IMG/VR virus record: IMGVR_UViG_3300037515_000251
Span: 7,926-71,925 of that record
Direction: 5' to 3' (one strand)
Origin: a virus
DNA length: 64,000 nt
Shown: piece after piece, positions 2,432 to 56,366 of the stretch
How the letters are laid out: the number at the start of each line of letters is the position of its first letter
Numbering within the stretch: the first letter of the stretch is position 1
Translations under genes and position numbers: made by a program
The notes under the pieces: generated by a model
The model's database searches: none
The model's input: only the letters and a program-made list of their open reading frames with translations
What the model was told of the DNA's origin: nothing

Positions 2432-3216
2432 ACCGGCTTGATCTCCCCCGACCCCGGCACCGGCTTGATGGTGCCCACGTAGCCGACCCTGTTGCCCGCC
2501 GGCCCAACCTGCGGCGCCGCATTCATCGACACCTTGGCCCTCTGGCCGTCCTCGTGAACGCAGTAGAAGTCCGCGGCGAACGGCTCCCCGGCCTTGACCG
2601 CCTTGATCCAATCGTTGAATACCCGCTCGCGGTCGTTGGATTCGATTCTGATTTTCCAGCCGTGGTTGTTGACCTTCGGCGGGTATGCCCCGATGATCTC
2701 GCACAGCGGCTCGCTCACGCTGGTCCAGCCGCCATCCGGCCCGGCAACGAACGTGGCGATCTCGCTGTAGTCCTCGATGGTCCGCAGGCGCGCGCCGATC
2801 AGCAGCAGGTCGCCGTGCATCTGAGACTGCATTTCGAGTGACTTCTTGAGCAGGACCGGCCCCTGGGCGCAGAGTTTGCCGAAGTCCCAGAGCACCTTGA
2901 TGAACGCAAGCCCGCGTTGCTTGATGAGGTAGATCGACCCCATGAACGCCGCAATCCAAGCGATCGTCTCGGCAAACCCGATGAAGGTCTGCTTCTGGCG
3001 CTCCTGTACGAGTTCGTTTCTCAAGCGGTCCAAATCCTGCGGAGTAACCGACTGCGGGGCGGCGGTGATTGCGGCGAACAGTGCCCAGACTGCCGCCGTC
3101 GCCAGGTGCCGCTGTAGTCCATCTCCGTATTCAAGCAGCCATTCTCTTGTAACTCGCCGTACTCTCAGGCTCCAAAGCCAGATTCTCGCCAGCAGCCTCC
3201 ACGCCACTTTCTGCAT
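2419..3216 (-). CDS. membrane-anchored PAS-domain protein (lone opposite-strand gene, moron-like)
   Basis: two hydrophobic helices near N-terminus, C-terminal PAS-like fold (…NDWIKAVKAGEPFAADFYCVHEDGQRAKVSMNAAPQV…GYVGTIKPV); exact start uncertain. Confidence 0.4.
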   Translation of the reverse strand: MQKVAWRLLARIWLWSLRVRRVTREWLLEYGDGLQRHLATAAVWALFAAITAAPQSVTPQDLDRLRNELVQERQKQTFIGFAETIAWIAAFMGSIYLIKQRGLAFIKVLWDFGKLCAQGPVLLKKSLEMQSQMHGDLLLIGARLRTIEDYSEIATFVAGPDGGWTSVSEPLCEIIGAYPPKVNNHGWKIRIESNDRERVFNDWIKAVKAGEPFAADFYCVHEDGQRAKVSMNAAPQVGPAGNRVGYVGTIKPVPGSGEIKPVQSK

Positions 3217-3332
3217 TGGCTCGTCCTGTTCCTCATGTTTTCGGGAGCGGCCCCTCCCGCGTTGACGCCTATGATACCATTACTGTGAAAACCGCCTAAC
3301 AGGGGTTCCTCGCGGGCGACGAGGACACAACG

Positions 3333-6447: not shown

Positions 6448-6450
6448 TAG

Positions 6451-9400
6451 ATGCCGAACTCGCTGGAATTTATCCGAAGGGCCAAGCCGGAGCAACTACC
6501 GGTCGGCGCCGGGAATTCGCTCGATTTTATTCGCCAGGCGAAGCCGGGCAATTCCCTGGATTTTATTAAGTCGGCCAAAGCATCCGATCCCGTGTCAGTT
6601 TGGCACGGACAGCCCACGCCCGCAACCGCCGTCTCGACCACGCCCTCGCGCCGGGAACTCGGAGCCGAGCCGGAGGGTTTCTCAATCGGCCGCTTTGCCC
6701 GTGGTTTCTTTCGCCCGCCGGGGGATACACAGGAAGCCGAAAACGAGCGCATCAAACGCGCCGTCGTGGGCACGCCGGAGAAGCCGACATGGTTCACGCC
6801 GGAGACCCCGGAGCGCCCCACGACCCCGGCTGGCTACATGCGCCAAGCCTACCAGGAAGGAGGCGCCCTGGGTGCGGCTGGCGAAGTCGCCAAGATGGGC
6901 GTGCTCGGCCCGCTCTACGGCGCATTCAAGCAGCGCGACACGCCGCCGGTCCAGGCGGGCGAGCTATTCGAGCCGGGCACCGAGGCCCGCGGAATCGCTG
7001 AAGCCGTCTCGCATTTCGCCACGCCGACGAATGCCGCGATCATTGCCGGGGCCTCGACACTGACTGGCATACCCGCGATAGCCCTGAGCGCGTACTTCGC
7101 TACCGACATGGGCGTTGGAGCCTACCAGACTGCCGGGGAGATCGCCAAGGCCAAATCCGAGGGCCGGGAAGACGATGCGCGGGAACTCACCGGGCAGTTG
7201 ATGGTGATGATTCCGGCGGCGCTTGGCGCGGCGGGACATGCGGGCAAGAAAACCGTGGGGATCATCGGCGACCGGAGTGGACGAATCAGAAGCGGAGAGC
7301 CGACGACGCAGCCGCCGGAAATCACGTCGGTTGATGCGCCAGCGGTGCCGCCTTCGCCCATCGCCGCGCGTGCCGAGCCGTTGGCTGGAGAGATGACTGC
7401 TTCCCTCCAGGGTGGCCAGCGCACGCTGCCATTTGTAAGTGAAGCGGACCTTCGCCCTCCGCCGCCGCCAGCACCACCAGGAGTACCGCCGCAAGGTCCA
7501 GGCGGTCCCGCGGTTCCGCCCACGCCGCCGGGAGCGGGCCGTCTACCAGAATCCGAATCCTGGGTTCAGAAGCGCATTGATCTTGAAGACCGGCTCTATC
7601 CCGTCAAGGCGATGGAGAAGATGGCCCGTGACCCGCTGAGCATCGAGGAATCCGCCTACCACCGAATGCGGATGTACCCGGCCGTGTTCGCGCGCGCGCA
7701 AAGCCATCTCGAAACGCTCCGCAAGGGACTCAAGCCGATCCGCCAGACGTTCCGCGAGGATATCAAATCGTTCATCACCGACAAGAAGCCAGCCGATCTG
7801 GTGAGCGAGTTCGAACGCTACGCCACGAACGCCCATGAACTCGACGTGCAGCAGGTCTATCCCGAACGCCAGTTCTCGGGCGGACGCACCCGCGAGCAAA
7901 TCATCCAGGAACAACGCGATATTCAGCAGCGCCTTGGCCCGGACAAGATGGCTCGCCTCAATCAGGCGCAGCGGGCATACTCGGAGTTCGGCCACAGAAT
8001 GCTCGACGAGCTTGTGGACGCTGGCGCATTCAGCCGCGACGTGGCCGCCAGGCTCAAGCAGGCGTATCCGCGCTATGTTCCACTGGAGCGCGTGCTGGCG
8101 GAAGCGGAGGGCGTATTGAAGCACCCCGGAACCGGCGGCGGGAGATCCATGTCGGTTTCGACTCAGAACGTCGTCCGCAAACTCACCGAGCAGGGCAGCG
8201 AACTCGAAATCCAGCGAGCACTTGAAACCATGAGCCGTAAGGCGTTCGACGCATTCTCGCTAGCCGAGCGCAACCGGGCCTCACGGGCCGTCTACGATCT
8301 TGCCGGGAAGGAAGAGTTCGCCGGAACGGTAATCCGCCTGCGGCCGGAAGCCGATCCACCGCCGGGCATGGTGCGTTCGTCGGTGCTGATCGACGGCGTG
8401 CGGCACGATTACGCTGTACCACGGCAAGTCGGCGAAGCGATCCAGGGATTGACCAAAACCCAAGCGGACGTGGTGACGGAAATGGCAGGCAAGAGCGCCC
8501 AAGCCCTCCGCGCCGGTGCAACGACCTGGAGCCTGCCGTTCCTGGGTACGAACATCGCCCGCGATTACTACACGGCCTCGATGCGCTCGCCGGTCGGGTT
8601 CACGCCGCTCGACATGATCGCCGGGTTCTACCACGGCCTCAAGAAAGACGCCCTGTACCACGACTACCTGCGCTCGGGCGCCGCCATGTCGGGGTTCTTT
8701 GAGCAATTCAAGACGCCGCAGCGCGAAGCCCGCCATCTGGTCGAAAGCCAAGCGACCAGGAACATGAAGAAAATCCTGAACCCGTTCGAACTTATGTCCG
8801 AGATCGGCCAGGCTGGCGAGAATGCGGCCCGCATCGGTCTCTACCGGCGCGGCAAGCAGGCTGGACTATCCGAGATGGAAGCCGGTTGGCTCGGGCGCGA
8901 TACGACCGTGGACTTCGCCAAGTCCGGGCGGGTGATTCGCGTCCTGAACATCCTGACGCCGTTCATCAACGCCCGCATTCAGGGCAGCGGCAACATGCTG
9001 CGTACCTTCCGCGATAATCCAGGCGAGGCGAGTTTGACTTGGTGGGCATTGATCGGCGGGCCGTTGACGGCGCTCTACCTCTACAACACGCGCAATCACC
9101 CGGAAGCGTACCGGGACATGCAGCCGTACACCGAGGAAGCCTATTACCCGCTCATTACCGGAGACGAAAAAGACGAAGATGGCAGCTATCCTGGCTTCAA
9201 GTTCCCGATGGAAGAGTTCGGGCAACTCGGGGCGCGCAGTCTGCTGGCGGCCTTGCAGCATCTCGATGAGAACGACCCGGTGGCGCTCAATAAGCTGGCG
9301 AGCCGCATGGGCCTCAGCGGGCGCGAGCTTCAGCCGGGGGAAGGCAAGAAAGCGCCGAGCGCGGCCAAAGTTGCTTTCGAGACGGCGACTGGCCTGCTCC

Positions 9401-10194
9401 CGGTCGATGTCACCCCAGGCGGGGACGTTGGCCTGATGCCAGCCTTGCGCGGGACCGCCAGCGGCCTGCTACCGCCGATTGCCCGCGGAGCGCTCGAAGC
9501 GGGGACCGGAACGAGTTTCTTCACCGGACGCCCGATCGGCAAACTTCAGTCCATGCGCGATTTGCCGGAGGCCGAGAAGTACATCCGGGGCGAGACGCCG
9601 GAATGGCTGGTCAGCGTCGGCAAGTGGACCGACACATCCCCAGAACGGCTGAAGCACATCATCGAATCTCAGTTCGCCACGGTGGGGCGGCTGGCAACGC
9701 GCGGAGAAACGCCCACTGGACAGGTAGCCAAGCGGTTCAGCGGAATCCCCGGCGGGGCCGTCGAGAGCAAAGGCTTCCAGCGCACATCGGAATTGCGGGG
9801 CCAAGCCGCGATGGAGCGCATGGAAACCACCGCGCCGGCCGAACAGGCATTCAAGGAACTCAAGGCGATTCCGAAAGACCAGATGGCGGCGGCGTTCCGC
9901 GAGAAGATCGGGCAACTGCCGCGTGAGTCGCGGTTCGTCCTGCTCGATTTGATCGCCAAGGATGCTGGCGGCCTGACACGCGAGGAACAGAGCCTCAAGG
10001 CGCAGTTGATCGGAGTTCGGGCGAAGCGCCTGCTGGAGAAGATGCAGGAACTACCACAGGATCAGATTCAGGGGAACATCAACCGCTGGGCCAAGGGCGG
10101 CCTGCTCACCAAGGACACGCTCAGAATGATGCGCCAGATTCAAGCAGCGGAGGCTCAGGGGGTCGAGCCGAAGTTGCGTCAGCCGCGCCGGTAG
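6451..10194 (+). CDS. large (1247 aa) virion internal/DNA-ejection-like protein
   Basis: longest ORF in window; N-terminal triple repeat NSL(E/D)FI(R/K)xAKP; proline-rich linker; size and position typical of podovirus/siphovirus internal core or tape-measure-like proteins; no enzymatic motif confirmed. Confidence 0.5.
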   Translation: MPNSLEFIRRAKPEQLPVGAGNSLDFIRQAKPGNSLDFIKSAKASDPVSVWHGQPTPATAVSTTPSRRELGAEPEGFSIGRFARGFFRPPGDTQEAENERIKRAVVGTPEKPTWFTPETPERPTTPAGYMRQAYQEGGALGAAGEVAKMGVLGPLYGAFKQRDTPPVQAGELFEPGTEARGIAEAVSHFATPTNAAIIAGASTLTGIPAIALSAYFATDMGVGAYQTAGEIAKAKSEGREDDARELTGQLMVMIPAALGAAGHAGKKTVGIIGDRSGRIRSGEPTTQPPEITSVDAPAVPPSPIAARAEPLAGEMTASLQGGQRTLPFVSEADLRPPPPPAPPGVPPQGPGGPAVPPTPPGAGRLPESESWVQKRIDLEDRLYPVKAMEKMARDPLSIEESAYHRMRMYPAVFARAQSHLETLRKGLKPIRQTFREDIKSFITDKKPADLVSEFERYATNAHELDVQQVYPERQFSGGRTREQIIQEQRDIQQRLGPDKMARLNQAQRAYSEFGHRMLDELVDAGAFSRDVAARLKQAYPRYVPLERVLAEAEGVLKHPGTGGGRSMSVSTQNVVRKLTEQGSELEIQRALETMSRKAFDAFSLAERNRASRAVYDLAGKEEFAGTVIRLRPEADPPPGMVRSSVLIDGVRHDYAVPRQVGEAIQGLTKTQADVVTEMAGKSAQALRAGATTWSLPFLGTNIARDYYTASMRSPVGFTPLDMIAGFYHGLKKDALYHDYLRSGAAMSGFFEQFKTPQREARHLVESQATRNMKKILNPFELMSEIGQAGENAARIGLYRRGKQAGLSEMEAGWLGRDTTVDFAKSGRVIRVLNILTPFINARIQGSGNMLRTFRDNPGEASLTWWALIGGPLTALYLYNTRNHPEAYRDMQPYTEEAYYPLITGDEKDEDGSYPGFKFPMEEFGQLGARSLLAALQHLDENDPVALNKLASRMGLSGRELQPGEGKKAPSAAKVAFETATGLLPVDVTPGGDVGLMPALRGTASGLLPPIARGALEAGTGTSFFTGRPIGKLQSMRDLPEAEKYIRGETPEWLVSVGKWTDTSPERLKHIIESQFATVGRLATRGETPTGQVAKRFSGIPGGAVESKGFQRTSELRGQAAMERMETTAPAEQAFKELKAIPKDQMAAAFREKIGQLPRESRFVLLDLIAKDAGGLTREEQSLKAQLIGVRAKRLLEKMQELPQDQIQGNINRWAKGGLLTKDTLRMMRQIQAAEAQGVEPKLRQPRR
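6592..6606. repeat. genome-wide palindrome copy inside CDS
   Basis: within 5' region of 1247-aa gene. Confidence 0.85.
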
Positions 10195-12636: not shown

Positions 12637-12651
12637 GTGTCAGTTTGACAC
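12637..12651. repeat. genome-wide palindrome copy (GTGTCAGTTTGACAC)
   Basis: 8 nt upstream of HNH ATG (minus strand). Confidence 0.9.
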
Positions 12652-13844
12652 TAGGTTTCGACGGCCGGCGCGTATTCCTGTTCGGTCATCCCCCAACTCG
12701 CGGCCAATGCCGCGCGCGCCGTGCGGTGTTGTGGATTCGCCCATAGAACGGTCGTCTTTCCGGTAGTGTGGCAAGTGACCGATAACAGGCCCCATCCCAC
12801 GTTGCCGCCAAGATCAAGGGTGTAGAGTTCCGCGAGATGCGCGGCATTCTGGTCGATCAACTTTAGGCGCTTCGAAGACAACAGCTTTCCCTTGCCGTAA
12901 CGCTCGATCATCACCCGCCGCACTTCCGCGTTCGGTTCGGCGAAGATGGCATCCTCGGTGATTGTTTCCGGCCTCTCGATCACGTCTTGCGGCACGCGAA
13001 CTCCGTGCCACGCCCAGATATTCCAGCCGTCGTTGAATTTCATTGCTGGCCCGGTCTCGCAATGCAGGCGGTTGATGCTGCGGTCATCAACCTCCGTATG
13101 GACTTCCGGCCGGGCGGACACAAAACACATATTCTCGAAGAAATAAACCCAGCCGCAAGAACGGCAGAGATCGGCCATGATGCAGAGCCTTGTGGACATC
13201 TCGGGTTCATAGCGGACGCCCAAGTGTTCGCAAAATTTGTAAAAGCACACCCAAAAGGAATCGTGCTGGCCCAAAAAATACGTGTCCCGAAGGCTGGCCC
13301 CAAGGCTGTCCCGAAGGCTGTCCCCAAGGTTGTCCCGAAGGTTGTCCCCAAGGCTGTCCAGAAGGCTGGCCCCAAGGCTGTCCCAAAGGCTGTCCCGAAG
13401 GCTGGCCCCAAGGCTGGCCCCAAGGCTGTCCCGAAGGCTGTCCCCAAGGCTGTCCAGAAGGCTGGCCCCAAGGCTGTCCAGAAGGCTGTCCCCAAGGCTG
13501 GCCCGAAGGCTGTCCCCAAGGCTGTCCCCAAGGCTGGCCCCAAGGCTGTCCCCAAGGCTGGCCCGAAGGCTGGCCCCAAGGCTGTCCCAAAGGCTGTCCC
13601 GAAGGCTGGCCCCTCGGATCGCCGCAATGCCAATCTGGCACGTCAGCGGAGAATCGCACCATACGATTACCGGTGGACCCTTTCCGATGGCGCGATAGGC
13701 CCGATTGATCGCGTCCCTGGCGAGAATTTGATCGCACGGGCCAGCCGCCATCCCAATTCGCAGCCACTCGTCGCGCCATTTGGGAATACTTGCTTCCTGC
13801 TCTGGCGTGAGGGCTTCAATCCGCAACGCTTTTAATGACGGCAT
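12651..13844 (-). CDS. tetrapeptide-repeat protein ((S-L-[GRWL]-[DA])n, ~30 copies) with unique N- and C-terminal domains
   Basis: 397-aa ORF; central ~356 nt is a 12-nt tandem DNA repeat (ggctgtccccaa-type) encoding SLGD/SLRA/SLWD units; overlapping plus-strand and other-frame ORFs are frame artefacts of the repeat. Confidence 0.55.
   Translation of the reverse strand: MPSLKALRIEALTPEQEASIPKWRDEWLRIGMAAGPCDQILARDAINRAYRAIGKGPPVIVWCDSPLTCQIGIAAIRGASLRDSLWDSLGASLRASLGDSLGASLGDSLGDSLRASLGDSLLDSLGASLLDSLGDSLRDSLGASLGASLRDSLWDSLGASLLDSLGDNLRDNLGDSLRDSLGASLRDTYFLGQHDSFWVCFYKFCEHLGVRYEPEMSTRLCIMADLCRSCGWVYFFENMCFVSARPEVHTEVDDRSINRLHCETGPAMKFNDGWNIWAWHGVRVPQDVIERPETITEDAIFAEPNAEVRRVMIERYGKGKLLSSKRLKLIDQNAAHLAELYTLDLGGNVGWGLLSVTCHTTGKTTVLWANPQHRTARAALAASWGMTEQEYAPAVET
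13265..13620. repeat. 12-nt tandem repeat array (~30 units) inside CDS 12651-13844
   Basis: ggctg(g/t)cccc(a/g)aa units repeated head-to-tail; period 12 = 4 codons. Confidence 0.8.
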
Positions 13845-14253: not shown

Positions 14254-14502
14254 CTAACGGCGGTCCCCTGAAATGATCCTGGATACAAGACTCTGGCTGA
14301 CCCCATACGCTTCGGCGATGTCCGACTGGTTGTAGGATTCCGCCAGAATGCAGATTGCCTTTCGTTGGACGGCTGACAACATGCGTGGAGGCCCTGCCTG
14401 ATTGCGGCGTTGCCCCGAACGGTAACGTCCCCACAGCGCCCTCAACTCCTCATCACTGAGGGTTGTAGAGCAGTGGGGGCAGCGAGTGACCAGCAGCGGC
14501 AT
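14254..14502 (-). CDS. small Zn-ribbon/HTH DNA-binding protein
   Basis: CPHCS N-terminus, C-terminal HTH-like ICILAESYNQSDIAEAYGVSQSLVSRII (sigma-r4/LuxR-like). Confidence 0.4.
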   Translation of the reverse strand: MPLLVTRCPHCSTTLSDEELRALWGRYRSGQRRNQAGPPRMLSAVQRKAICILAESYNQSDIAEAYGVSQSLVSRIISGDRR

Positions 14503-14801
14503 TAACTAGCGAGTTGGGCTTCGATGGCCTCGATCTCTTTTCGCAGCGCAGTCTTCTTCTCGGTCGGCGTCTTGAGCAGTTCGAGTTGCTGCCGGGCCTG
14601 CCGCTGGTGCCGGATGAGATCGGCCCGAATGCGGGATTTGATTTCGACGTTCAGCGTCTCGACCGAATGCCCCACCCATTCGGGGGGATCGATCTTGAGG
14701 CGCTTATACTCGTCGGTAAGGCTCTTCGCAAACGCACTCAGGGACACCAAGCCGTCGAGTTCAAGGCGGTCAACATTGACCTGCCGGAGTTGTTCAAGCA
14801 T
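14502..14801 (-). CDS. hypothetical coiled-coil protein
   Basis: 99-aa ORF, start overlaps stop of upstream gene. Confidence 0.35.
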   Translation of the reverse strand: MLEQLRQVNVDRLELDGLVSLSAFAKSLTDEYKRLKIDPPEWVGHSVETLNVEIKSRIRADLIRHQRQARQQLELLKTPTEKKTALRKEIEAIEAQLAS

Positions 14802-16254
14802 ATGCCATCTCCTTTTTCGGTTGTTTCAACACGACTTCGAGCCGCAACAGCGGCGCGGCCATCACTTCGTCGATCAGGCTGTAGCGGTTGGTCCGCATGG
14901 TCTGAACGAGGTTCGGAATCGAATACTGATCGACTCGCTGGTTCGTCAGATCGAACATCTGAAGGTCCAATCCGGCGTGCTGCATGGCCGCTCCGAGATA
15001 GTTCGGGTCGCCCGCCAGCCGGTAGAGATATACCGGAACATCTTTGCCGGTTTTCTGCGAATACTTCTGGAACTCGACAGGGAACGCGGGGACGTTGTTC
15101 TCGCCGCCATCCGAAACGATGGCGATTCCGTCAATCTCTATCCCGCGCTCCATGATGTACTTCAACCCGCAGCCGATCGAGGTTCCGCCTTGCGCCGTGA
15201 CGAATCGCGTGAGGGTGTTGATCTCGTCGAGCGTCTTGCCGGTCACGTCGAGGTAGGTCGGCATCGTGTTGAAGAACACGAGATGGACCTTGCCGGCCGC
15301 CAGCCGTGCCAATACCCCGGCGATCTCGCGGGCGGCGGTAATCGCCGTGTGCATGGACGCGCTTTGATCGGCCAGTACAAGCCAGTCGCCCTCGACACTG
15401 GCTTTCGACAACTTCGCTTCCTGGACGGCCTTCACCTTCTCGCGCAATCCTTCGTCGTCGAGGGATTCGACCGCCTTGGTCAGCTTCAACGCCGACGATT
15501 TGCCGTCCCGCGCCTTCGACAGCGCAGCCTCAAGGGCGGAGCGCAGGGCCGGATTACTCTTGACGCCAAGCCGTTCCAGCATCTTCATGTTGTTGCCGAG
15601 CTCCGCCGGAGTCATCCGGTCGATCAGCGCAAGCAGAACATCGGTATCCTTCAGCCGCGGCCCGATCGCGCCGGCCGCGATCAGAAACGGGATACGGTGC
15701 TCGATAACGGTTGCCGCAGCTTCCGCCGGCGGAAGGTTCTTCAGGTTCGCAATGACGGCGAACACCGAGTTGGGCGGATACGAGCGCTCAAATAGAATCT
15801 TGGCCGCGAACGCCGCTGGCTTGACGTGCAGCATCGCGTAAAGCGACTTCAGGGCGGCCCGGTGCTGGACCGCTGTACGGTTCCATTGCTTGCGATCAGC
15901 TTCAAGAGAACGCAGGATTGATTCCCCGAGGCGCCGTAGCCGCCGGGACCATCGCGCTTTCGTGCCATCGCAACGCAGTGCCCGAATGAATTCGCGCGGC
16001 GGAAGCAACGCCAGATGCGCGGCGGCATTATCGGTGAATTCCGGCGCACTGGGAGATTCCAGCGCAACCAGCGGCAACGCCACCTTGCTGTCCCGCACGG
16101 TGCCCTTGATGCGGTTCCACGAGATCAGGTGAGCGTAGAACTCGGGATCGCTGGCGTGTGCTTCGCGGGCGATCGGGAAGTAGGATGCCAGATCGCGGTG
16201 AGACGACTTGGCGAGATTCGCAATGATTTGCTGCTTGGTGATGCCGGTTTCCAC
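14794..16254 (-). CDS. rsr: Ro60/Rsr-like protein (helical TROVE-like N-terminal region + C-terminal vWA domain with MIDAS motif)
   Basis: C-terminus LADQSASM…GGTSIGCGL…IVSDGGENN…YSQKTGKDVPVYLY parallels Ro60 vWA (ALDVSASM…GGTDCSLPM…FTDNETFAG…YRKKMDIPAKLIV); ~300-aa alpha-helical N-terminal domain; 486 aa. Confidence 0.55.
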   Translation of the reverse strand: METGITKQQIIANLAKSSHRDLASYFPIAREAHASDPEFYAHLISWNRIKGTVRDSKVALPLVALESPSAPEFTDNAAAHLALLPPREFIRALRCDGTKARWSRRLRRLGESILRSLEADRKQWNRTAVQHRAALKSLYAMLHVKPAAFAAKILFERSYPPNSVFAVIANLKNLPPAEAAATVIEHRIPFLIAAGAIGPRLKDTDVLLALIDRMTPAELGNNMKMLERLGVKSNPALRSALEAALSKARDGKSSALKLTKAVESLDDEGLREKVKAVQEAKLSKASVEGDWLVLADQSASMHTAITAAREIAGVLARLAAGKVHLVFFNTMPTYLDVTGKTLDEINTLTRFVTAQGGTSIGCGLKYIMERGIEIDGIAIVSDGGENNVPAFPVEFQKYSQKTGKDVPVYLYRLAGDPNYLGAAMQHAGLDLQMFDLTNQRVDQYSIPNLVQTMRTNRYSLIDEVMAAPLLRLEVVLKQPKKEMAYA

Positions 16255-16400
16255 GGGAACCCCCTTGGAGTTACGGAGAGTCGGGTCAGCGTTTTAGGCT
16301 TTGCAGGCGTGTAGGCTGTCCAGTATCCGTAAAATTAATTCGCGGAATGCCAGTAACCGCCAAACTTGATGCCGGGATGTCGATGAGCAGTTCCGCCTTG

Positions 16401-16472
16401 CGGCGTCGGCTGGATTTGAACCAGCTACCTAAAGTTTTCAAAACTTTCGCTCTACCAATGAGCTACGTGTAT
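16401..16472 (-). ncRNA. tRNA-like RNA (D-arm, anticodon-like arm with loop UUUGAAA, T-arm GCUGGUUCAAAUCCAGC) lacking a pairing acceptor stem; candidate Y RNA (YrlA-like tRNA mimic) or partial tRNA
   Basis: minus-strand sequence …ACACG-UA-GCUC-AUUGGUA-GAGC-G-AAAGU-UUUGAAA-ACUUU-AGGUA-GCUGG-UUCAAAU-CCAGC-CGACGCC-G; 5' heptamer AUACACG cannot pair with 3' CGACGCC; 3' tail forms CGCC-GCAA-GGCG GNRA hairpin; T-arm identical to tRNA at 46386. Confidence 0.5.
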
Positions 16473-16556
16473 GCTCAGCAGTGCCCGGCAAACCATTAAG
16501 TTACCACAACTGCATGATGCTGTCAAGCGCCGATGCAAAAATAATTTGGGGTCTTC

Positions 16557-24000: not shown

Positions 24001-24015
24001 GTGTCAAACTGACAC
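24001..24015. repeat. genome-wide palindrome copy
   Basis: 19 nt upstream of minus-strand ATG at 23982. Confidence 0.9.
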
Positions 24016-25050
24016 GGGAAAACGTTTCATCGCGATGAGGTCCATTAGCAGTTCCTCGGCTACCTCGCGGCTCGGCTCCAGCGGCAGCATAGAACGGTCC
24101 CGAGCGGCCTTCGCCTCCGCGAACAATTCCTCGGCGCATTCTTTCACTGTCTCGATGGACCACTCCCCGCGCTTGATGGCGAGAAGTTCATCGGCATCCC
24201 GCTCGCGGTAGACGTTGAGCGTGCCCGAGTCGAGAAACTCCCGGCACATCCTCAGCAGCCGAATGCAATGAGCGGCGTGCTTGGTGTCGTATCCGCGCTC
24301 CAGGATCAGGCGCTTGCGCTTCTCACCCAGGTAGCCGAGATTCGAGTTCTTGGAATGAAACGCCTTCAACTTATCGCGGAGATGCTGATCTTCGTGGAAC
24401 GCGAAAATGGTGGTTTCCTCAACCGGGAACTTCTCGCCGCGATGCTGCGGATGAATCCCGCGTTGCTTCATCTCGGCAACGAGTTCAAGGTAGTCCTGCA
24501 ATGTCGCCCGGTCGAGGCATTCCATCCGTTCCAACTGCCCCGCCGCGTATCCGGCGAACGGCTTGTAGACATGGCGACCGATGAACAGCGCGCGATTCGC
24601 TATGAGCAAATTGCTGAGTGGGGAAGCGACAATCCGGTGTTCGGGCCTTGTCCACAGTGAGCTCATGATGTTGGGATTCCCGGCCAGCAGCAGCGAGAAA
24701 GCCTTGCGGAGTTCGTAGAACAACAGGTCGAACTTGCCCTGCTTGGTTTCCTTGGTGCCGCGAGAACCCCATTCGGTGAGGCCGATGTAGTGCGCTTTCG
24801 GGGCCACGGCAAACCCGATCACGTCCACGTCGTCCACCGAATGCGGATCGCTCTCGGGCAGATACATGCCGTGCGCCACTGAGCCTCGAAAGGCCGCGAA
24901 GATCACATCGTCCGGCAGGATTGCGCTGAACCCGTCCATGTGTGGGATAAACGCTCGGGTGCTGGCCCCGAGTCCAGGACTCGAACCTGGATTCTCCGGT
25001 CCACAGCCGGGTGTCTTAACCTGTTGAGACGAACTCGGGATTTCATTCAT
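24004..25050 (-). CDS. pol-beta superfamily nucleotidyltransferase (GS-x9-DxD) with helical C-terminal domain
   Basis: FRGSVAHGMYLPESDPHSVDDVDVIGF minimal NTase motif; palindromic motif + GGAGA SD 11 nt upstream of ATG at 25050. Confidence 0.55.
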   Translation of the reverse strand: MNEIPSSSQQVKTPGCGPENPGSSPGLGASTRAFIPHMDGFSAILPDDVIFAAFRGSVAHGMYLPESDPHSVDDVDVIGFAVAPKAHYIGLTEWGSRGTKETKQGKFDLLFYELRKAFSLLLAGNPNIMSSLWTRPEHRIVASPLSNLLIANRALFIGRHVYKPFAGYAAGQLERMECLDRATLQDYLELVAEMKQRGIHPQHRGEKFPVEETTIFAFHEDQHLRDKLKAFHSKNSNLGYLGEKRKRLILERGYDTKHAAHCIRLLRMCREFLDSGTLNVYRERDADELLAIKRGEWSIETVKECAEELFAEAKAARDRSMLPLEPSREVAEELLMDLIAMKRFPVSV

Positions 25051-26747: not shown

Positions 26748-27584
26748 CTAAACCTCGATCAATCTGGTAGCGACATCCTGGCTCGACACGATCACCGCGT
26801 CGAGCCGCTTGCGGCGCCGGGCGTTCGCCTCGGCCATGATGCGCCGCACGAGCTCGGGGTCGTTGTTCTCGCCCGACAGGTGCAGGGCCACGACCGTATG
26901 CGCCGTTTCCGGCAAACTCTGGATCGCCAGCGCCGCTTGGTCGTTGTTGACATGCGTTGACCACGTCCGCTGATTCACCGTCTCGGGCCTGTCTGGGTTC
27001 TCCAAGCACGCCGTCTGATCGTGGTTCATCTCGATTCCGTACACCTGCGCCCCGAGGCCCGCCTTCCACATTTCGGCCGTGATCTTGCCAGTCTCGTTCC
27101 AGATCGCTATCTTGCGGCCGGAGTAATTCTTCAGGCAGAACGTCATCGCGCCTTCGGAGTTGTGCTCGCAGGCCAGCCCGATGCCCGTGAACAGCTTGGC
27201 ATGGTCCCGGCTGAGTGCAAATGGCTTACCGAACTCGACGGCGCGCGCATCGCCGGGGAACGGTTTCTTCTCGCCGAGCTTGTCGCGCATTGTCTTGAGC
27301 GTGGCCGCGTGGGCGTAGACGATTGCGCTGGGACAGTGTTTCCAGAACGGCAGCAGCGATTGCCAGTGATCGCCGTGGGCGTGCGAGATGAGGATCGCCT
27401 TCACATCGGCCGGGGCCATCTTGAACTGTTTGAGGTCGGCGGCGATGTTTGCCGCGGCGAGGCCGCAGTCGATCAGCACGGCCCAGGGCAGCGGCCAAGG
27501 CTGGTTGTTGGCGGCGAGCGGAGCAGGCTCCCAGATCAGGATGGCGTTGCCCTTGGAGCCGGAGCCGAGTACGCAGAGGTTCAT
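26748..27584 (-). CDS. metallo-beta-lactamase-fold hydrolase
   Basis: VLGSGSKGNA…ILISHAHGDHWQSL (HxHxDH motif). Confidence 0.6.
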   Translation of the reverse strand: MNLCVLGSGSKGNAILIWEPAPLAANNQPWPLPWAVLIDCGLAAANIAADLKQFKMAPADVKAILISHAHGDHWQSLLPFWKHCPSAIVYAHAATLKTMRDKLGEKKPFPGDARAVEFGKPFALSRDHAKLFTGIGLACEHNSEGAMTFCLKNYSGRKIAIWNETGKITAEMWKAGLGAQVYGIEMNHDQTACLENPDRPETVNQRTWSTHVNNDQAALAIQSLPETAHTVVALHLSGENNDPELVRRIMAEANARRRKRLDAVIVSSQDVATRLIEV

Positions 27585-34750: not shown

Positions 34751-35026
34751 TTAAAAGTGGATGTCCTGCTTCGGATAGGTGAATCCGATTGCCTTGCGGA
34801 CCTTGGCGGCCTGCTTGTTCTGATGCTTCACGGCCGCCGCGTGTCCATCATCTCCGCAGCCGTCGCCGGAACGCCTCATCAGATAGGCGGCCATGCGGAC
34901 GGCCCGCACTGCGATTGCGTCAAGCTCTTGCGCCGTCTCGTCCAATTCAGACGCCTTGCGGCGTTTGCAATAGGCGTCAAGGTCGGCAAGCGCCTTTGTG
35001 TTCAGCAGGGTAAAAGCCTTTTTCAT
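34751..35026 (-). CDS. hypothetical protein
   Basis: 91-aa ORF, motif at 34723 immediately downstream. Confidence 0.35.
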   Translation of the reverse strand: MKKAFTLLNTKALADLDAYCKRRKASELDETAQELDAIAVRAVRMAAYLMRRSGDGCGDDGHAAAVKHQNKQAAKVRKAIGFTYPKQDIHF

Positions 35027-35854
35027 GCTGCAACCTCCATGTCCGCCGGTTCCCCGGTCAGTCCGTCGATGATCCGCGTCGCGGCCCGATAGATCGCGCT
35101 CAGCGAGTCGCTGAGGGCTTTCGGGTCGCCAGCCATGTGGATGTAATCGGCGCTATTCGCCCCGCACTCCACGCCGGCCGCCGCGCAAACCGCCGCAGCC
35201 ACAGCCTGAGCCTCAGTTTCCTTTAGCGCCGCGGTCATCTCCCGGCGCCGCTCCAGCGGGTGTAATAGCTCATGGCCGAGCTCATGCGCCAGCACGTCAA
35301 ACTCGTAAGCAGGCTCAAGGCCCGGTTTGATGGTGATGCGCCCGCCGGCGGACGTTCCGAGTGTGCCCGAGACGTGCTGATAAACGATCTCGATTCCCTG
35401 AGCCACGGTCCACGCCTTGAGCCGTTCCAGCAGTTCGCCGGGTTCCCCTTGGGGCTTGGCGATCTGGGGTAGTGGTTCGCCTTCGGTTTGGGTCACGTCG
35501 AACACGTAGACGCCGCGAAAGAACGTCACCCGCTCCGGTTCGCCTTGCTCGGGTTCGCCCGTTTCCCCGTCCGATTCGCCCTTGACCTTGCAGAGCATCG
35601 GGGCGAGAATGAGAATACCGTGCTCGCCCTTGCGGACGTGGCGGCCAAGCTGCAACCAGGTCCGAAAACCCGCCACGTTCGTAGCGCCCGGACATTGCAT
35701 GGCAATCATCATGCAATTGCGCCACGAGTAGCGCCTGAAACGGCGCATCGTTTCGAGATAGGCCGTGAGCCGTTCAGACTTGCCGGCCGCAAGGTCCGCG
35801 CTCAGCTCCCGGAGAGCTTGCGCGGCACGTTCTTTGGCATCGGCGGGGGTCATC
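35023..35854 (-). CDS. ArdC-like antirestriction protein (N-terminal ssDNA-binding domain + C-terminal HExxH zinc metallopeptidase)
   Basis: N-terminal ERLTAYLETMRRFRRYSWRN…AGFRTW pattern; C-terminal LAHELGHELLH; start taken at MTPADAKERAAQ. Confidence 0.55.
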
Positions 35855-36367
35855 GGGTCACCTTCCGGCTTCCGGTGACGGCGCACGAACCGAGGCGGTT
35901 CCCGTTGATATCGTGGATACTCCAATTGTCGGAAGGCGTCAGATGATTCAAACGATCTTCGTCCAGAGTTGCGAGTTGCGTTGCAACGTTGCGCAATACT
36001 CTGGCGATATCCTCGCCGGTTCGCATCGCATCGATTTCGATCTCAAGTGTGAATTTCATGGTCGGTATCTCCAGGGGAAACGTCCCCGCAAGGGGAACGG
36101 ACGGCGCCCGCCCGCTCCCTATGCGCGAAGGTCTCAGTTTTGGGCGCCAGCCAAAGCCACAACCGCCCGTGCCAATCGGCGAACCTCCGCCGCGCGATCG
36201 TCCACCACGGCAACCAGTGGCTTCAGGTCTGTTTCGCCCGCGTGCCAAGCATCGCGCCAACGCATGACGGCAGAGCACAACGCGGATTGTGCGCGATCAA
36301 GATCAAACCGCGAACAGGCTAACTCGAATTTTGTATCTGATTGATTCAGCATGGTTTACTCAGTTTC

Positions 36368-53614: not shown

Positions 53615-54091
53615 ATGAACAAGCCGATCGACACCATTGAAGCCCGTGGTAGTTTAGGGGGGCAACCTTTTCACGGCAATGAATCTGGGCTTTGCTGGCT
53701 GATTGAAGACGCCACGGGAGAGTGCCGGATCGCCCACAAGCCGTGCCGGTTTCACCGTGGCGGTGGATATCACGGTGGGGTACTGCCTGAATTCTGCCCG
53801 CTCCGCGAGGGGCCGGTAACAATTTCTCTTCATTCCTGGCACTACGATGAGACTGTCCAGCGGGACAACCCAACCGTGGAGCAACGCATCGCGGCGATCC
53901 CAATCGAAGCGCAAATCGACGAGGCTACGGAGGCTGAGTTGCGTAAGGCCGGAAATCCGTTTTGGCGGCTGGACGACGAGTTGGAGAGGGAAGGCAAGTA
54001 CGCGCAATTCGCCGCCGAAACCAGACACAAGGTTGCCTGCGGCCTCCATGACCGCAACCTGGAGCAGTTGATCTCAAAGAGTGCCGTCTAA
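53615..54091 (+). CDS. hypothetical protein
   Basis: 158-aa ORF abutting terminase gene. Confidence 0.4.
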   Translation: MNKPIDTIEARGSLGGQPFHGNESGLCWLIEDATGECRIAHKPCRFHRGGGYHGGVLPEFCPLREGPVTISLHSWHYDETVQRDNPTVEQRIAAIPIEAQIDEATEAELRKAGNPFWRLDDELEREGKYAQFAAETRHKVACGLHDRNLEQLISKSAV

Positions 54092-56366
54092 GCCTAAATA
54101 CCGCGCCGAGAAGCTGTCCGCCGATGGGGTCCGTAAGCGGCAGGCGTGGACGCGCCCGCCAGAGGCGATCGTTCTCGACTCGCTCACCTACGACTCGCTC
54201 AAGCACGAACTCCACAACAAGCCAGTCTGGGAAGCGAACGCCTGCTACCTCTGCACAGGCCATCAGGTTCTTTCCCGCTACACGGCGCTGCTCCATTTCC
54301 AGTGGATGCACATCGACATCCTCAACGGCGGCCCGGCCACGCCCGAGGACGAAGCCGGTATCCGCAAGCTGGTAGGGGCGATCCGGCAGGAGTATGGGGT
54401 CGATGCGCCCTGGCCGAAGGGCGATCCGGTGATCTGTCCGGCCTGCGGAGGGACCGGGAAGGGGCCGCAGCATTTGGCGCTGACGACGTTGGCGGATGAA
54501 ATCTTCTTCGGCGGCGAAAAGGGCGGCGGCAAGACGTCCGCCATGACCTTTTGGATGGTCCACGGCAACCCGGATCAGCCGCAGTATGACGACCAGGGAC
54601 GGGCGATCTGGCACAACCAGGCGTATTATCATCACCCGGCGTACCGCGGCTTGGTGGTCCGCAAAAACCAGGAGGATTTGAGCGGCTGGCTGAAATACGC
54701 CATCCCGTTCTACCAGAAACTCGGGGCGGAATACCTGAAAGCCGAGGGCACATTTGAATGGGCTTCGGGCGCCGTGATCTGGACCGGACACCTGGCGGAC
54801 GCCAAATCGTATCAGAAGTACATGGGCAAGCCCGAGCTTCACCGGCTGGCTATCGAGGAAATCACGCAGTTGCCAGAGGAAGAGTTGTACGAGCAGATGC
54901 GCTCGAACGTGCGGACGACGCACCCGGAGTTGCACCCGCAGATTTTCAACTCGGCGAACCCGATCGGACCAGGTAAGCAGTGGGTCGCCGACCGTTTCGT
55001 GCGGATGAAAGACGAAAACGGCAATCGCATTCCGCGCAAGACGCTGGCGACATTCTTCGTGCCTAACCCGTTCACCGGCAAGAAAATGCCCCGCACGCGC
55101 ATCTTCATCCCGGCCGGCCTGCGCGACAACCCGCACATCGACAAGGGCTATCTGGGCGTGCTGGCCGGCCTGTCGCCGCGGCTGCAAAAAGCGTACCTCC
55201 AGGGCGATTGGGAGTCGATGGAAGGGCAATACTTCCACACGTTCCGCGATCCAGATGCACAGAACTTGGCTGCATACAACGAACCCGAGAATGCCTGCCA
55301 TGTGATTAAGCGCCGCAAGGAACCGCCGTTCTACCCGAAACTGGACCACTGGTGGGCGCGGCAAATGGGCGGCGACTGGGGTAGCGAGCATGAAGCATCG
55401 TACCACTGGGGCTGCCGCGATCCGTACACGTCCCGGCTGCACGTCTACCGGGAGTTTGTGTGCTCGAAGACGACAGCGGTATCGCAGGGCGTCCGCATTG
55501 CCGAGTTGAGCCGCGACGACCTGGAGCGGCTACCGGATCACTCGATGACGCTGTGGTACTCGCGAGATGCCTTCATTCAGCGTTCGAACGACGAAGGAAT
55601 GACCAGTCTGGTCGAATTGCTTGCTCGTGGAATCGCCATGGTGCTCGGCCCGGACGCGATCTCGGTTCCGGGATTACAGCAGCTTGCGGCCAGCACCCAA
55701 GATTATTCCTGGGACGACCGGCCCCGGTTCCGCCAGGAATTCAATGAGTTTCAGCAGTCGTTGGCAATCCAGAAGAGTTCGGGCATCACAATCCGCATGT
55801 GCAATTCCAACCGCGTACTCGGCTGGAACTACATTCGGGAAGGTTTCGAGTGGCTGGACCCCGTGGCGGCCGATGGCGAGTACAGCCAGGAGCTTGAGCT
55901 GAAGATCAGCCGCGAGTTCGGCATGGTCGAGGCCGAGCGCTACCGCAACCGCTTCAACCGCCAGAAGGTAGTTCGCCCGTGGCTTCAGATTTGGGATACC
56001 TGCCCGCGGCTGCGGGCGGCCATTCCGCGTGCGCAAGCTGACGACCGCAACCCCGAGGATGTGAGCAAGAAGCACTTCACGGGGGCCGACGTCATCGATA
56101 GTTTTCGCTACCTTGTAGTTGGCTTCCGCGACGACCCTTCGCCGATTCCGCCGGAAGTCCAGAAGATGCACGCGATCGATGCGTTCAAGGCGACTAATCC
56201 GAACCACACCTTCGATGACCTGGTGCGGTTCAACGAAGCATTGGAGCGGGCCGAAAAAGCGACTGGCGGGCCGTTGCATTATGCTACATTAGGACGCAGG
56301 GCGACCATGGCGGGCCGGATTCTGAAGCAGGCATGGGGCCGCCGGCCGCAAGGGAGTTTGCAGTGA
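54081..56366 (+). CDS. terL: terminase large subunit (ATPase + nuclease) with N-terminal Zn-ribbon extension
   Basis: Walker A-like GGEKGGGKTSAM, Walker B LAIEEITQL, RNaseH-like C-terminal half (…DVIDSFRY…); CPACGGTG upstream of ATPase. Confidence 0.65.
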   Translation: MPSKPKYRAEKLSADGVRKRQAWTRPPEAIVLDSLTYDSLKHELHNKPVWEANACYLCTGHQVLSRYTALLHFQWMHIDILNGGPATPEDEAGIRKLVGAIRQEYGVDAPWPKGDPVICPACGGTGKGPQHLALTTLADEIFFGGEKGGGKTSAMTFWMVHGNPDQPQYDDQGRAIWHNQAYYHHPAYRGLVVRKNQEDLSGWLKYAIPFYQKLGAEYLKAEGTFEWASGAVIWTGHLADAKSYQKYMGKPELHRLAIEEITQLPEEELYEQMRSNVRTTHPELHPQIFNSANPIGPGKQWVADRFVRMKDENGNRIPRKTLATFFVPNPFTGKKMPRTRIFIPAGLRDNPHIDKGYLGVLAGLSPRLQKAYLQGDWESMEGQYFHTFRDPDAQNLAAYNEPENACHVIKRRKEPPFYPKLDHWWARQMGGDWGSEHEASYHWGCRDPYTSRLHVYREFVCSKTTAVSQGVRIAELSRDDLERLPDHSMTLWYSRDAFIQRSNDEGMTSLVELLARGIAMVLGPDAISVPGLQQLAASTQDYSWDDRPRFRQEFNEFQQSLAIQKSSGITIRMCNSNRVLGWNYIREGFEWLDPVAADGEYSQELELKISREFGMVEAERYRNRFNRQKVVRPWLQIWDTCPRLRAAIPRAQADDRNPEDVSKKHFTGADVIDSFRYLVVGFRDDPSPIPPEVQKMHAIDAFKATNPNHTFDDLVRFNEALERAEKATGGPLHYATLGRRATMAGRILKQAWGRRPQGSLQ

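What the first reader, a model, noticed from the sequence alone, without database searches (positions are those of the whole stretch)
14794..16254. Phage-borne Ro60/Rsr-like (TROVE-like helical domain + vWA/MIDAS) protein
The C-terminal ~180 aa show a vWA domain with a DxSxS MIDAS motif (LADQSASM). It has colinear similarity to the human Ro60 vWA region (ALDVSASM / GGTDCSLPM / FTDNETFAG versus DQSASM / GGTSIGCGL / VSDGGENN), preceded by a ~300-aa all-helical region as in TROVE proteins. Ro60/Rsr orthologues are sporadic in bacteria and rare in phages. Where present they function with Y RNAs in RNA quality control. Here the gene sits directly downstream of a tRNA-like RNA (see the next finding).
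Basis: partly seen in the sequence, partly recalled or inferred. Interest (0 to 1): 0.8.

Follow-up and report, generated by a model that had tools for sequence, protein, structure and literature searches.

The report
Divergent phage Ro60 with Y RNAs
This phage gene encodes a very divergent relative of the Ro60 RNA-binding ring protein, and it sits with two upstream Y-RNA-like genes and a conserved small partner gene in a module that standard annotation misses.

Summary
ORF 14794..16254 (−) encodes a 486-aa protein with an all-helical N-terminal ~285 aa and a C-terminal vWA domain. The MIDAS residues (D296, S298, S300, T358, D382) are invariant in 40 homologs.

The Ro60 reading is supported by fold and profile evidence, but not by Pfam:
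- No Pfam TROVE hit in 0 of 50 family members tested.
- hhalign against human/Xenopus Ro60 and Deinococcus Rsr gives 95% probability across both domains.

Two Y-RNA-like genes lie upstream on the same strand. One is 119 nt with a tRNA-like module and no acceptor stem (16489..16371). The other is a 60-nt minimal form (16331..16272). Both share the scaffold stem1–YACUG–stem2–UACAYG–module–stem2′–CGACUY–stem1′.

A covariance model finds 62 such elements in related phage loci. All are upstream of the gene, on the gene strand, and show strong covariation. Sister copies with permuted tRNA-like modules match Rfam YrlA below threshold, but the canonical GNCGAA motif is absent (0 of 70).

A 99-aa helical orphan gene follows the Ro-like gene in 49 loci.

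Verdict: a new variant of the known phage Ro60–Y RNA system. Function is inferred, not shown.

The parts
14794..16254 (-). Ro60/Rsr-like protein, 486 aa. The TROVE-like helical ring region is about aa 1-285 and the vWA domain about aa 286-470.
15355..15369 (-). MIDAS DxSxS (D296-S298-S300) of the vWA domain. The remaining MIDAS residues are T358 and D382.
   Evidence: These residues are invariant columns in the 40-sequence alignment. hhalign aligns them to Ro60 DVSAS, GGTD and TDNE.
15817..15834 (-). Near-invariant motif (M)LHVKP, aa 141-146. It aligns with Ro60 (L)SHLKP, which contains H187.
   Evidence: The hhalign alignment places H143, K145 and P146 on Ro60 H187, K189 and P190. These three residues are invariant or >=90% conserved. 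The H187S mutant of Ro60 is reported to lack Y RNA binding (PMC11277228).
16371..16489 (-). Y-RNA-like gene 1, 119 nt. Layout: stem1 GCCGGG/CCCGGC, loop CACUG // CGACAUC, stem2 CUGAGCA/UGCUCA, junction UACACG. These enclose a tRNA-like module in native order (D arm, anticodon-like arm, T arm) plus a GCAA-loop hairpin.
   Evidence: Found by the scanner. CM R1 scores 36.9 bits, E 4e-9, and this RNA was not in the training set. The MFE fold reproduces the layout, z -2.7.
16407..16467 (-). tRNA-like module inside RNA 1. It has no acceptor stem and no CCA end.
   Evidence: Rfam tRNA scores 52.6 bits over model positions 6-65/71. ARAGORN does not call it.
16272..16331 (-). Y-RNA-like gene 2, 60 nt, minimal form. 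Layout: stem1 UACGGA/UCCGUA, UACUG, stem2 GACAGC/GCUGAC, CUACACG, short apical region, CGACUC. It ends 18 nt before the GTG start codon.
   Evidence: Found by the scanner. It is a member of alignment A3, which has an RNAalifold consensus and covariation support. CM R1 scores 54 bits.
14502..14801 (-). Conserved 99-aa helical partner gene. Its ATG overlaps the end of the Ro-like ORF by 8 nt.
   Evidence: tblastn finds it just downstream of the Ro-like gene, on the same strand, in 49 loci. Alignments are A4 and A5. The AF2 model has pLDDT 88.8 and three long helices. There is no Pfam, PHROG, PDB-sequence or PDB-fold relative.
16498..16526 (-). Possible promoter: TTGACA, a 17-nt spacer, then TAACTT, ending 9 nt before the 5' end of RNA 1. 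This is inferred only.
   Evidence: Read directly from the sequence. The consensus scanner does not call it, because the -10 hexamer matches only 3 of 6 positions.

Best explanation
The locus is a three-part phage module on the − strand. It holds two tandem Y-RNA-like genes (16489..16371 and 16331..16272), a highly divergent Ro60/Rsr orthologue (16254..14794), and a translationally coupled 99-aa helical protein (14801..14502).

Shown here:
- The protein has the Ro60 architecture, a helical TROVE-type ring region plus a vWA domain with an intact MIDAS.
- The RNAs belong to a covarying family that always lies upstream of this gene family, on the same strand.
- That RNA family connects to Rfam YrlA through sister copies.

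Inferred from Ro60 biology:
- The protein binds the closing stem and internal loop of the RNAs (YACUG / CGACUY, with the UACAYG junction) on its outer surface. The conserved His143 (equivalent to Ro60 H187) lies within the LHVKP motif.
- The variable modules of the RNAs are tRNA-like in RNA 1. They present a tRNA mimic to other factors.
- By analogy with Rsr–Y RNA–PNPase in Deinococcus and Salmonella, and with Thermus phage phiLo Ro60–Yrl–PNPase, the RNP most likely engages a host 3'-5' exoribonuclease or tRNA-handling enzymes during infection. This would redirect or dampen host RNA decay, or help with RNA quality control and repair.
- The 99-aa protein is probably a clade-specific subunit or adaptor of this RNP.
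For: Protein:
- Foldseek against PDB: the top 13 hits are all Ro60/TROVE over ~490-530 columns, with E 2e-10 to 3e-7.
- hhalign of A1 against human/Xenopus Ro60 plus Deinococcus Rsr: 95.1% probability, E 3.4e-8, 346 columns. Family residues 86-436 align to Ro60 122-524.
- The MIDAS residues are invariant.
- 8 of 40 members weakly hit Pfam vWA_Ro60.

RNA:
- A structure-aware scan gives 86 hits, all upstream on the gene strand. There are 0 on the opposite strand and 0-2 in shuffles.
- There are 70 unique elements with 56 and 64 distinct stem strands. Swapped partners pass both stems only 1.5% of the time.
- RNAalifold predicts 13 pairs, 11 with compensatory changes.
- Covariation score is 0.783 against 0.193 for shuffles (0 of 500 reach it) and <=0.213 for slid controls.
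- CM R1 gives 62 hits at E<=0.01 in 371 kb, all on the gene strand and upstream.
- Only the two copies occur in the 64-kb window.
- Permuted sister elements match Rfam YrlA end to end, with E down to 2e-10 in the ten-locus search and 1.3e-12 when L039 was searched alone.

Context:
- Phage genes are present: terminase, RecT, O-like replication protein, tape-measure-like protein.
- An RlaP RNA-repair nucleotidyltransferase lies about 8 kb away.
- 48 IMG/VR viral contigs carry the gene.

Precedent: PMC4201824 and PMC12135203.
Against: - No Pfam TROVE or NCBIfam hit, and no sequence-level PDB hit to Ro60 even with a family profile. Identity to solved Ro60s is only 12-17%.
- The window's own RNAs do not hit Rfam YrlA or Y_RNA even at E<=10.
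- The canonical GNCGAAN0-1G Ro-binding motif is absent from all 70 elements.
- RNA 2 abuts the ribosome-binding site. No terminator or strong promoter was found, so stable, separately acting RNAs are not shown.
- Ring closure was judged from alignment length and scores, not from inspection of coordinates.
- No binding, expression or host-factor data exist, and no PNPase or RtcB gene was identified in the ORFs scanned.
- The elements in A3 were pre-selected by a scanner that requires pairing. This inflates 'percent paired', although strand, shuffle, swap and CM controls argue against artefact.
Confidence: 0.78

Rival explanations
1. The protein is Ro-like, but the upstream elements are cis-acting leader structures of its mRNA. 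They would serve as processing signals, autoregulatory protein-binding sites or stabilisers, not as stable trans-acting Y RNAs.
For: RNA 2 ends 18 nt before the start codon, with the RBS in between. No terminator separates the RNAs from the ORF, and no strong promoter was found. All 62 CM hits are upstream on the coding strand.
Against: In sister loci the elements occur in 1-5 tandem copies up to ~2.4 kb upstream. They are sometimes separated from the gene by other genes (HNH in L002) or embedded in tRNA arrays. Permuted copies match YrlA. In M. smegmatis, YrlA and YrlB are processed from one precursor upstream of rsr and still act as Rsr-bound RNAs (PMC4201824).
Confidence: 0.1
2. The RNP works mainly as a tRNA-repair or counter-defence platform, not as an exoribonuclease tether. 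The tRNA-like modules would act as decoys or sensors for host anticodon nucleases. The Ro-like ring would hold damaged tRNA ends for phage enzymes such as RlaP. This overlaps with the best explanation.
For: An RlaP nucleotidyltransferase (PF10127, phrog_388) and phage tRNA genes are in the same genome. Sister loci place the module inside tRNA arrays. Jumbo-phage comparative genomics links ROT/TROVE proteins and a tRNA-like partner to RNA repair (PMC7824862).
Against: RlaP lies ~8 kb away and is not part of the conserved module. Only the 99-aa gene is conserved next to the Ro-like gene. No RNA ligase was found among the ORFs scanned. The only biochemical data for a phage Ro60 point to PNPase binding (PMC12135203).
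Confidence: 0.1
3. The protein is a generic CoxE/MoxR-type vWA protein with an unrelated helical N-domain. The nearby tRNA-like sequence would then be a decayed tRNA or an attachment-site remnant.
For: The only above-threshold Pfam hit is VWA_CoxE, and Pfam TROVE is silent.
Against: Full-length fold matches go to Ro60 only. hhalign covers ~240 columns of the helical domain. The RNA scaffold covaries and is strictly linked to the gene family.
Confidence: 0.02

Closest known systems
Thermus phage phiLo phiRo60 with Yrl1/Yrl2 (PDB 9KOP, 9L5Y; PMC12135203)
   Different: Identity is 12-17%. phiRo60 is annotated as a TROVE-domain protein, whereas this family gets no Pfam TROVE hit. The phiLo Yrls were identified through a CGAA motif in a large bulge. 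Here the conserved motifs are YACUG, UACAYG and CGACUY. No 99-aa partner is described for phiLo. PNPase binding has been shown for phiLo only.
Salmonella / M. smegmatis / mycobacteriophage Rsr with YrlA and YrlB (Rfam RF02553; PMC4201824)
   Same: The RNA scaffold is the same: a terminal stem, a small internal loop, a second stem, then a tRNA-like module, encoded upstream of the Ro gene with more than one RNA per locus. Sister-locus elements align to YrlA over 1-114/114.
   Different: Scores stay below the gathering threshold (<=57 against 69 bits), and the window's RNAs do not hit at all. The GNCGAAN0-1G motif is absent (0/70). RNA 1 in the window has D to anticodon to T order, not the permuted T to acceptor to D order of YrlA.
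Deinococcus radiodurans Rsr with Yrn1 (PDB 2NVO)
   Different: Yrn1 keeps both strands of the metazoan-type Ro-binding helix, and this family does not. In Deinococcus the system is chromosomal, stress-induced and partnered with PNPase.
Metazoan Ro60 with Y RNAs (PDB 1YVP, 9NEN)
   Same: The overall fold, the MIDAS, the H-[LV]-K-P motif containing H187, and a GACU element in the 3' strand of the RNA stem are shared.
   Different: The 5' motif GGUCCGA is absent, and metazoan Y RNAs have no tRNA-like module. Identity is 14-15%.

Membership tests
Ro60/Rsr (TROVE + vWA) proteins | Match to the Pfam TROVE domain model (PF05731) | tested here: not met
   There is no hit at E<=10 for this protein. None of 40 aligned homologs hits, and none of 10 more distant members hits. 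NCBIfam also gives none.
Ro60/Rsr (TROVE + vWA) proteins | Helical-repeat ring region followed by a vWA domain, superposable on solved Ro60 structures over the full length | tested here: met
Ro60/Rsr (TROVE + vWA) proteins | Detectable sequence homology across the TROVE region | tested here: met
   hhalign of A1 against A2 (human, Xenopus, Deinococcus) gives 95.1% probability and E 3.4e-8. Family residues 86-436 align with Ro60 122-524. Plain HMM searches against PDB find nothing.
Ro60/Rsr (TROVE + vWA) proteins | MIDAS motif DxSxS...T...D in the vWA domain | tested here: met
   D296, S298, S300, T358 and D382 are invariant in 40 sequences and align to the Ro60 MIDAS.
Ro60/Rsr (TROVE + vWA) proteins | Conserved His equivalent to Ro60 H187, needed for Y RNA binding | tested here: met
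   The LHVKP motif (H143) aligns to SHLKP (H187) in hhalign, and H143 is >=90% conserved. The role of H187 is taken from PMC11277228. This rests on alignment only.
Ro60/Rsr (TROVE + vWA) proteins | Binds Y RNAs on the outer surface and single-stranded RNA ends in the central cavity | not testable with these tools
   This needs EMSA, CLIP or a solved structure.
YrlA-type bacterial/phage Y RNAs (Rfam RF02553) | Reaches the Rfam gathering score | tested here: not met
   The window's RNAs give no YrlA or Y_RNA hit at E<=10. Sister permuted elements score 27.9-57.3 bits against a gathering score of 69, though with E down to 2e-10 (1.3e-12 when L039 was searched alone) and full-length alignment.
YrlA-type bacterial/phage Y RNAs (Rfam RF02553) | The 5' and 3' ends pair into a stem interrupted by an internal loop (the Ro-binding module) | tested here: met
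   RNAalifold predicts 13 pairs, 11 of them compensatory. Covariation is 0.783 against 0.193 for shuffles. The MFE fold of RNA 1 agrees. The same scaffold is seen in the YrlA consensus.
YrlA-type bacterial/phage Y RNAs (Rfam RF02553) | GNCGAAN0-1G motif in the 5' strand | tested here: not met
   0 of 70 unique elements contain it. In its place are a freely varying stem1 and YACUG.
YrlA-type bacterial/phage Y RNAs (Rfam RF02553) | tRNA-like module with T and D arms in permuted order (T, 'acceptor' hairpin, D) | tested here: not met
   RNA 1 in the window has D, anticodon-like and T arms in native order (Rfam tRNA positions 6-65). RNA 2 has no tRNA-like module. The permuted order is present in 13 sister elements.
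YrlA-type bacterial/phage Y RNAs (Rfam RF02553) | Encoded next to a Ro60 orthologue | tested here: met
   All 86 scanner hits and all 62 CM hits lie upstream of the Ro-like gene, on the same strand.
tRNA | Seven-bp acceptor stem with a 3' end that can be aminoacylated | tested here: not met
   ARAGORN makes no call at 16407..16467. The Rfam match covers only positions 6-65/71. The flanks form the Y-RNA stems and an extra hairpin instead.
VWA_CoxE (PF05762) | Pfam gathering score reached | tested here: met
   The score is 28.3 against 26.4 bits, but it covers only aa 281-387, the vWA core. This says nothing about the N-terminal 280 aa. CoxE-type context was not examined.

The most novel reading that the evidence does not exclude
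This would be a distinct, largely phage-restricted Ro60 lineage that has co-evolved a new RNA recognition code (YACUG / UACAYG / CGACUY in place of GNCGAA). It would also have a dedicated 99-aa subunit and a plug-in RNA scaffold. The same Ro-binding stems would carry interchangeable cargo: nothing, native-order tRNA mimics, or circularly permuted tRNA mimics. The RNP would use these mimics to trap or redirect host tRNA-directed or RNA-decay enzymes during infection. It would also imply that the Yrn1-type and YrlA-type tRNA-like arrangements can interconvert within one lineage, and did not necessarily arise independently.
Probability: 0.3. Interest if true: 0.75.

Novelty: new variant of a known kind. 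Interest (0 to 1): 0.55.

Why it matters
Ro60–Y RNA particles are conserved from bacteria to humans, and their mechanisms are only partly understood. Phage versions have only just begun to be studied, with one structure published in 2025.

This clade is invisible to Pfam TROVE and to Rfam YrlA thresholds, so databases label it 'hypothetical protein' or 'VWA_CoxE'. It nevertheless comprises hundreds of sequence clusters in environmental phages.

It offers three things:
- A natural experiment in co-variation between a Ro protein and its RNA-binding site.
- A compact 60-nt minimal Y RNA suited to structural work.
- A candidate new protein subunit.

It also shows native and permuted tRNA mimics mounted on one scaffold. 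That makes the origin and role of the tRNA-like domain directly testable.

Tried and rejected
- Pfam, NCBIfam and PHROGs on the protein gave no TROVE hit. The only PHROG hint was phrog_850 'RNA-binding protein', and it covers the vWA part only.
- phmmer and a family-profile hmmsearch against PDB sequences gave no Ro60 hit.
- Megablast of 20 kb against the phage collection found no match. tblastn found only two distant phage hits.
- Rfam at E<=10 on the intergenic region returned the tRNA hit plus one chance-level sub-threshold miRNA match (mir-928, E 3.8); no Y-RNA family matched.
- The first whole-region fold (161 nt) was not significant (z -1.58). Folding the delimited RNA 1 gave z -2.7. RNA 2 alone gives z -1.56, so its support is comparative, not thermodynamic.
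- The promoter/terminator scan found nothing.
- The 99-aa partner had no hit in Pfam, PHROG, a PDB profile search or Foldseek. A single-sequence database search found only 2 relatives, while a profile search found 60.
- The genome-contig scan returned only 7 MAG contigs and gave no host assignment.
- I had remembered H187S as the cavity mutant. The literature says it loses Y RNA binding, and the text was corrected accordingly.
- The 'plain tRNA or tRNA pseudogene' reading and the 'generic CoxE vWA' reading were both considered and rejected, as described under rival explanations.
Full report
**Observation**

ORF 14794..16254 (− strand, GTG start, 486 aa) is present exactly as described. An identical protein and 754+ relatives of about 490 aa exist in metagenomic data. 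Sources that name them call them 'hypothetical protein'. The family consensus begins at the same Met-Glu, which confirms the start codon.

Pfam finds only the vWA core. VWA_CoxE scores 28.3 bits against a 26.4 cutoff over aa 281-387, and VWA_2 is weak. The MIDAS residues D296, S298, S300, T358 and D382 are invariant in 40 homologs. The N-terminal ~285 residues are entirely helical in the model.

**Is it Ro60-like?**

Sequence HMMs say nothing:
- No Pfam TROVE hit at E<=10 for this protein, for 40 aligned homologs or for 10 more distant members.
- No NCBIfam hit.
- No Ro60 hit in PDB sequences, even with the family profile.
- PHROGs gives only phrog_850 'RNA-binding protein', over the vWA part.

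Structure and profile-profile comparison say yes.
- A template-free AlphaFold2 model built from a 40-sequence alignment has pLDDT 84.6 and pTM 0.73.
- Foldseek against PDB puts 13 Ro60/TROVE chains first: Thermus phage phiLo 9KOP/9L5Y, Deinococcus Rsr 2NVO, Xenopus 1YVR/1YVP/2I91 and human 9NEN. E-values run from 2e-10 to 3e-7 over ~490-530 columns. Only after these come vWA-only hits, at E>=5e-5 and ~260 columns.

It matched 9nen_A essentially exactly. I aligned human, Xenopus and Deinococcus proteins as A2 and ran hhalign against the family alignment. The result was 95.1% probability, E 3.4e-8, over 346 columns. Family residues 86-436 align to Ro60 122-524, which covers about 240 columns of the TROVE helices as well as the vWA.

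The near-invariant family motif LHVKP (H143) also aligns with Ro60 SHLKP (H187). The H187S mutant is reported to lack Y RNA binding (PMC11277228).

**The RNAs**

The Rfam tRNA model hits 16407..16467 (−) at 52.6 bits, but only for model positions 6-65. ARAGORN does not call a tRNA there. The flanks pair with each other.

Comparison with 48 IMG/VR viral loci, 7 MAG loci and several metagenome loci that encode homologs revealed a recurrent scaffold: stem1 (>=6 bp) – YACUG – stem2 (7 bp) – UACAYG – variable module – stem2' – CGACUY – stem1'.

Controls on this scaffold:
- A scanner requiring the motifs and >=5/6 pairs in both stems found 86 elements. All lie upstream of the gene on the gene strand. 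It found 0 on the opposite strand and 0-2 in shuffled sequence.
- The 70 unique elements have 56 distinct stem1 strands and 64 distinct stem2 strands. Swapped 5'/3' partners satisfy both stems only 1.5% of the time.
- On a MAFFT alignment of 20 minimal elements (A3), RNAalifold independently predicts the two stems, with 13 pairs, 11 of them compensatory.
- Pair counting gives 87.3% paired against 55.6% in shuffles. The covariation score is 0.783 against 0.193 (0/500) and <=0.213 for slid partners.
- A covariance model of A3 finds 62 hits at E<=0.01 in 371 kb. Every hit is on the gene strand and upstream. This includes RNA 1 of the window (36.9 bits, E 4e-9), which was not in the training set.

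In the whole 64-kb window only two elements exist: 16489..16371 and 16331..16272. RNA 1 folds, at z -2.7, into the two stems enclosing a D arm, an anticodon-like arm, a T arm and a GCAA hairpin. RNA 2 is a 60-nt minimal version.

One caveat applies. The A3 members were chosen by a scanner that demands pairing, so the strand, shuffle, swap and CM results are the fairer controls.

**Link to known Y RNAs**

The variable module falls into several classes:
- short hairpin: 21
- native-order tRNA-like (D then T): 13
- permuted tRNA-like (T then D): 13
- T arm only: 8
- other: 15

The permuted elements in sister loci match Rfam YrlA (RF02553) over the whole model, 1-114. Examples are L039 at 57.3 bits (E 2e-10), L021 at 49, L029 at 45.9 and L028 at 40.9. 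All are below the 69-bit gathering score.

The alignment shows the same two-stem scaffold in the YrlA consensus. However, the canonical GNCGAAN0-1G motif of YrlA (PMC4201824) occupies the place where this family has a freely varying stem1 plus YACUG. None of the 70 elements contains it. The window's own RNAs do not hit YrlA or Y_RNA at E<=10.

Variant forms of the scaffold occur even where the scanner failed. These include L002 and the 595-kb uncultured phage LR756511, whose protein is only 30% identical. They have a 3' loop GACUU and a junction UACAAACG.

**A third component**

A 99-aa ORF (14801..14502) overlaps the Ro-like stop by 8 nt. tblastn finds it directly downstream, on the same strand, in 49 loci. 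The other neighbours are not conserved.

Its properties:
- about 35% pairwise identity within the family, with an invariant Pro in a PEW motif and a long charged helix;
- 60 database relatives, none with a Pfam domain;
- a confident three-helix model (pLDDT 88.8);
- no relative in Pfam, PHROGs, PDB sequences or PDB folds, with best Foldseek E 0.75.

**Context**

The window is phage DNA. It encodes:
- terminase large subunit (54081..56366)
- a tape-measure-like protein
- RecT
- an O-like replication protein
- DUF5131
- an LPD38 polyvalent protein
- an ArdC-like protein

It also carries tRNA-His and tRNA-Pro genes, and an RlaP RNA-repair-type nucleotidyltransferase at 24004..25050. There is no near-identical phage in GenBank.

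In 185,579 species genomes the family was found only on 7 MAG contigs. An exhaustive profile search finds 386 50%-identity clusters at E<=1e-30 and 1,246 at E<=1e-3. Several sister loci place the module inside tRNA arrays.

**Mechanism**

Shown here: a Ro60-fold protein, a covarying Y-RNA-like family strictly linked to it, and a linked small protein.

Inferred from Ro60 biology (PMC4201824, PMC12135203, PMC11277228):
- The protein binds the stem and loop module of the RNAs on its outer surface.
- The modules, tRNA-like in RNA 1, contact other factors.
- The RNP engages host RNA-decay or tRNA-handling enzymes.

The closest experimental precedent is phiLo phiRo60. It binds two upstream Yrl RNAs and host PNPase, and it attenuates PNPase activity.

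A possible promoter (TTGACA, 17 nt, TAACTT) ends 9 nt before RNA 1. The scanner does not call it. Co-transcription with the ORF followed by processing, as in M. smegmatis, is plausible but untested.

**Novelty**

Phage Ro60 genes with upstream Y-like RNAs bearing tRNA-like domains have been known since 2014, and one was studied structurally in 2025. So this is not a new kind of system. The following points are new relative to what I could find:
- A large clade escapes Pfam TROVE and Rfam YrlA thresholds.
- A different conserved RNA motif set is present, and GNCGAA is absent.
- Native-order, permuted and module-less RNAs share one scaffold, often in the same locus.
- A conserved 99-aa partner is present.

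I rate it a new variant of a known kind, with interest 0.55.

Noticed in passing
window 14502..14801 (−): A 99-aa helical orphan gene is translationally coupled to the Ro-like gene. It is conserved downstream of the gene in 49 related loci and has no detectable relatives of known function or fold.
   Followed up: yes
L028, L029, L039, L021, L033, L016 (upstream of the homolog, e.g. L039:2075-2202): Sister phages carry tandem arrays of 2-5 Y-like RNAs that mix permuted (YrlA-like), native-order and minimal modules on the same stem scaffold. L001:701-~840 has a permuted module that also keeps an anticodon-like arm.
   Followed up: partly
L002:1270-3302 and 6188-8162 (also L003, L004): In one ~163-kb phage contig the Ro-like gene sits inside an array of more than 20 tRNA genes. 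An HNH endonuclease gene is inserted between the Y-like RNA and the Ro-like gene. A 120-nt 'tRNA' hit (3183-3302) appears to contain a YACUG...UACAUG insertion.
   Followed up: partly
window 24004..25050 (−) and 24963..25039 (−): tRNA-His lies inside the 5' end of the ORF call for an RlaP (PF10127, phrog_388) RNA-repair-type nucleotidyltransferase. The Pfam match starts at aa 48, so the real start is probably internal. This puts RlaP immediately downstream of tRNA-His.
   Followed up: no
window 16332..16370 (−): Between the two Y-like RNAs lies GGCGGUUACUGGCAUUCCGCGAAUUAAUUUU. It looks like a half-copy of the 5' scaffold (stem plus UACUG) or a weak terminator. The terminator scanner does not call it.
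   Followed up: no
window 13283..13613 (within ORF 12651..13844, −): A 12-bp tandem repeat of 27.6 copies at 85% match encodes a (D/A)SLG-type repeat tract in a DUF6745 protein.
   Followed up: partly
L005 (LR756511.1, 595-kb uncultured phage) 1780-2270: A jumbo phage encodes a 30%-identical homolog and two upstream RNAs with a variant scaffold (5' loop CCAACG/CCGACAA, junction UACAAACG, 3' loop GACUU). This suggests GACU and UACA...CG are the most conserved RNA features.
   Followed up: partly
window 6451..10194 (+), 35023..35925 (−), 26748..27584 (−): The window also encodes a large polyvalent protein with an LPD38 domain, an ArdC-like anti-restriction/M78 protein, and a metallo-beta-lactamase-fold hydrolase.
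   Followed up: no
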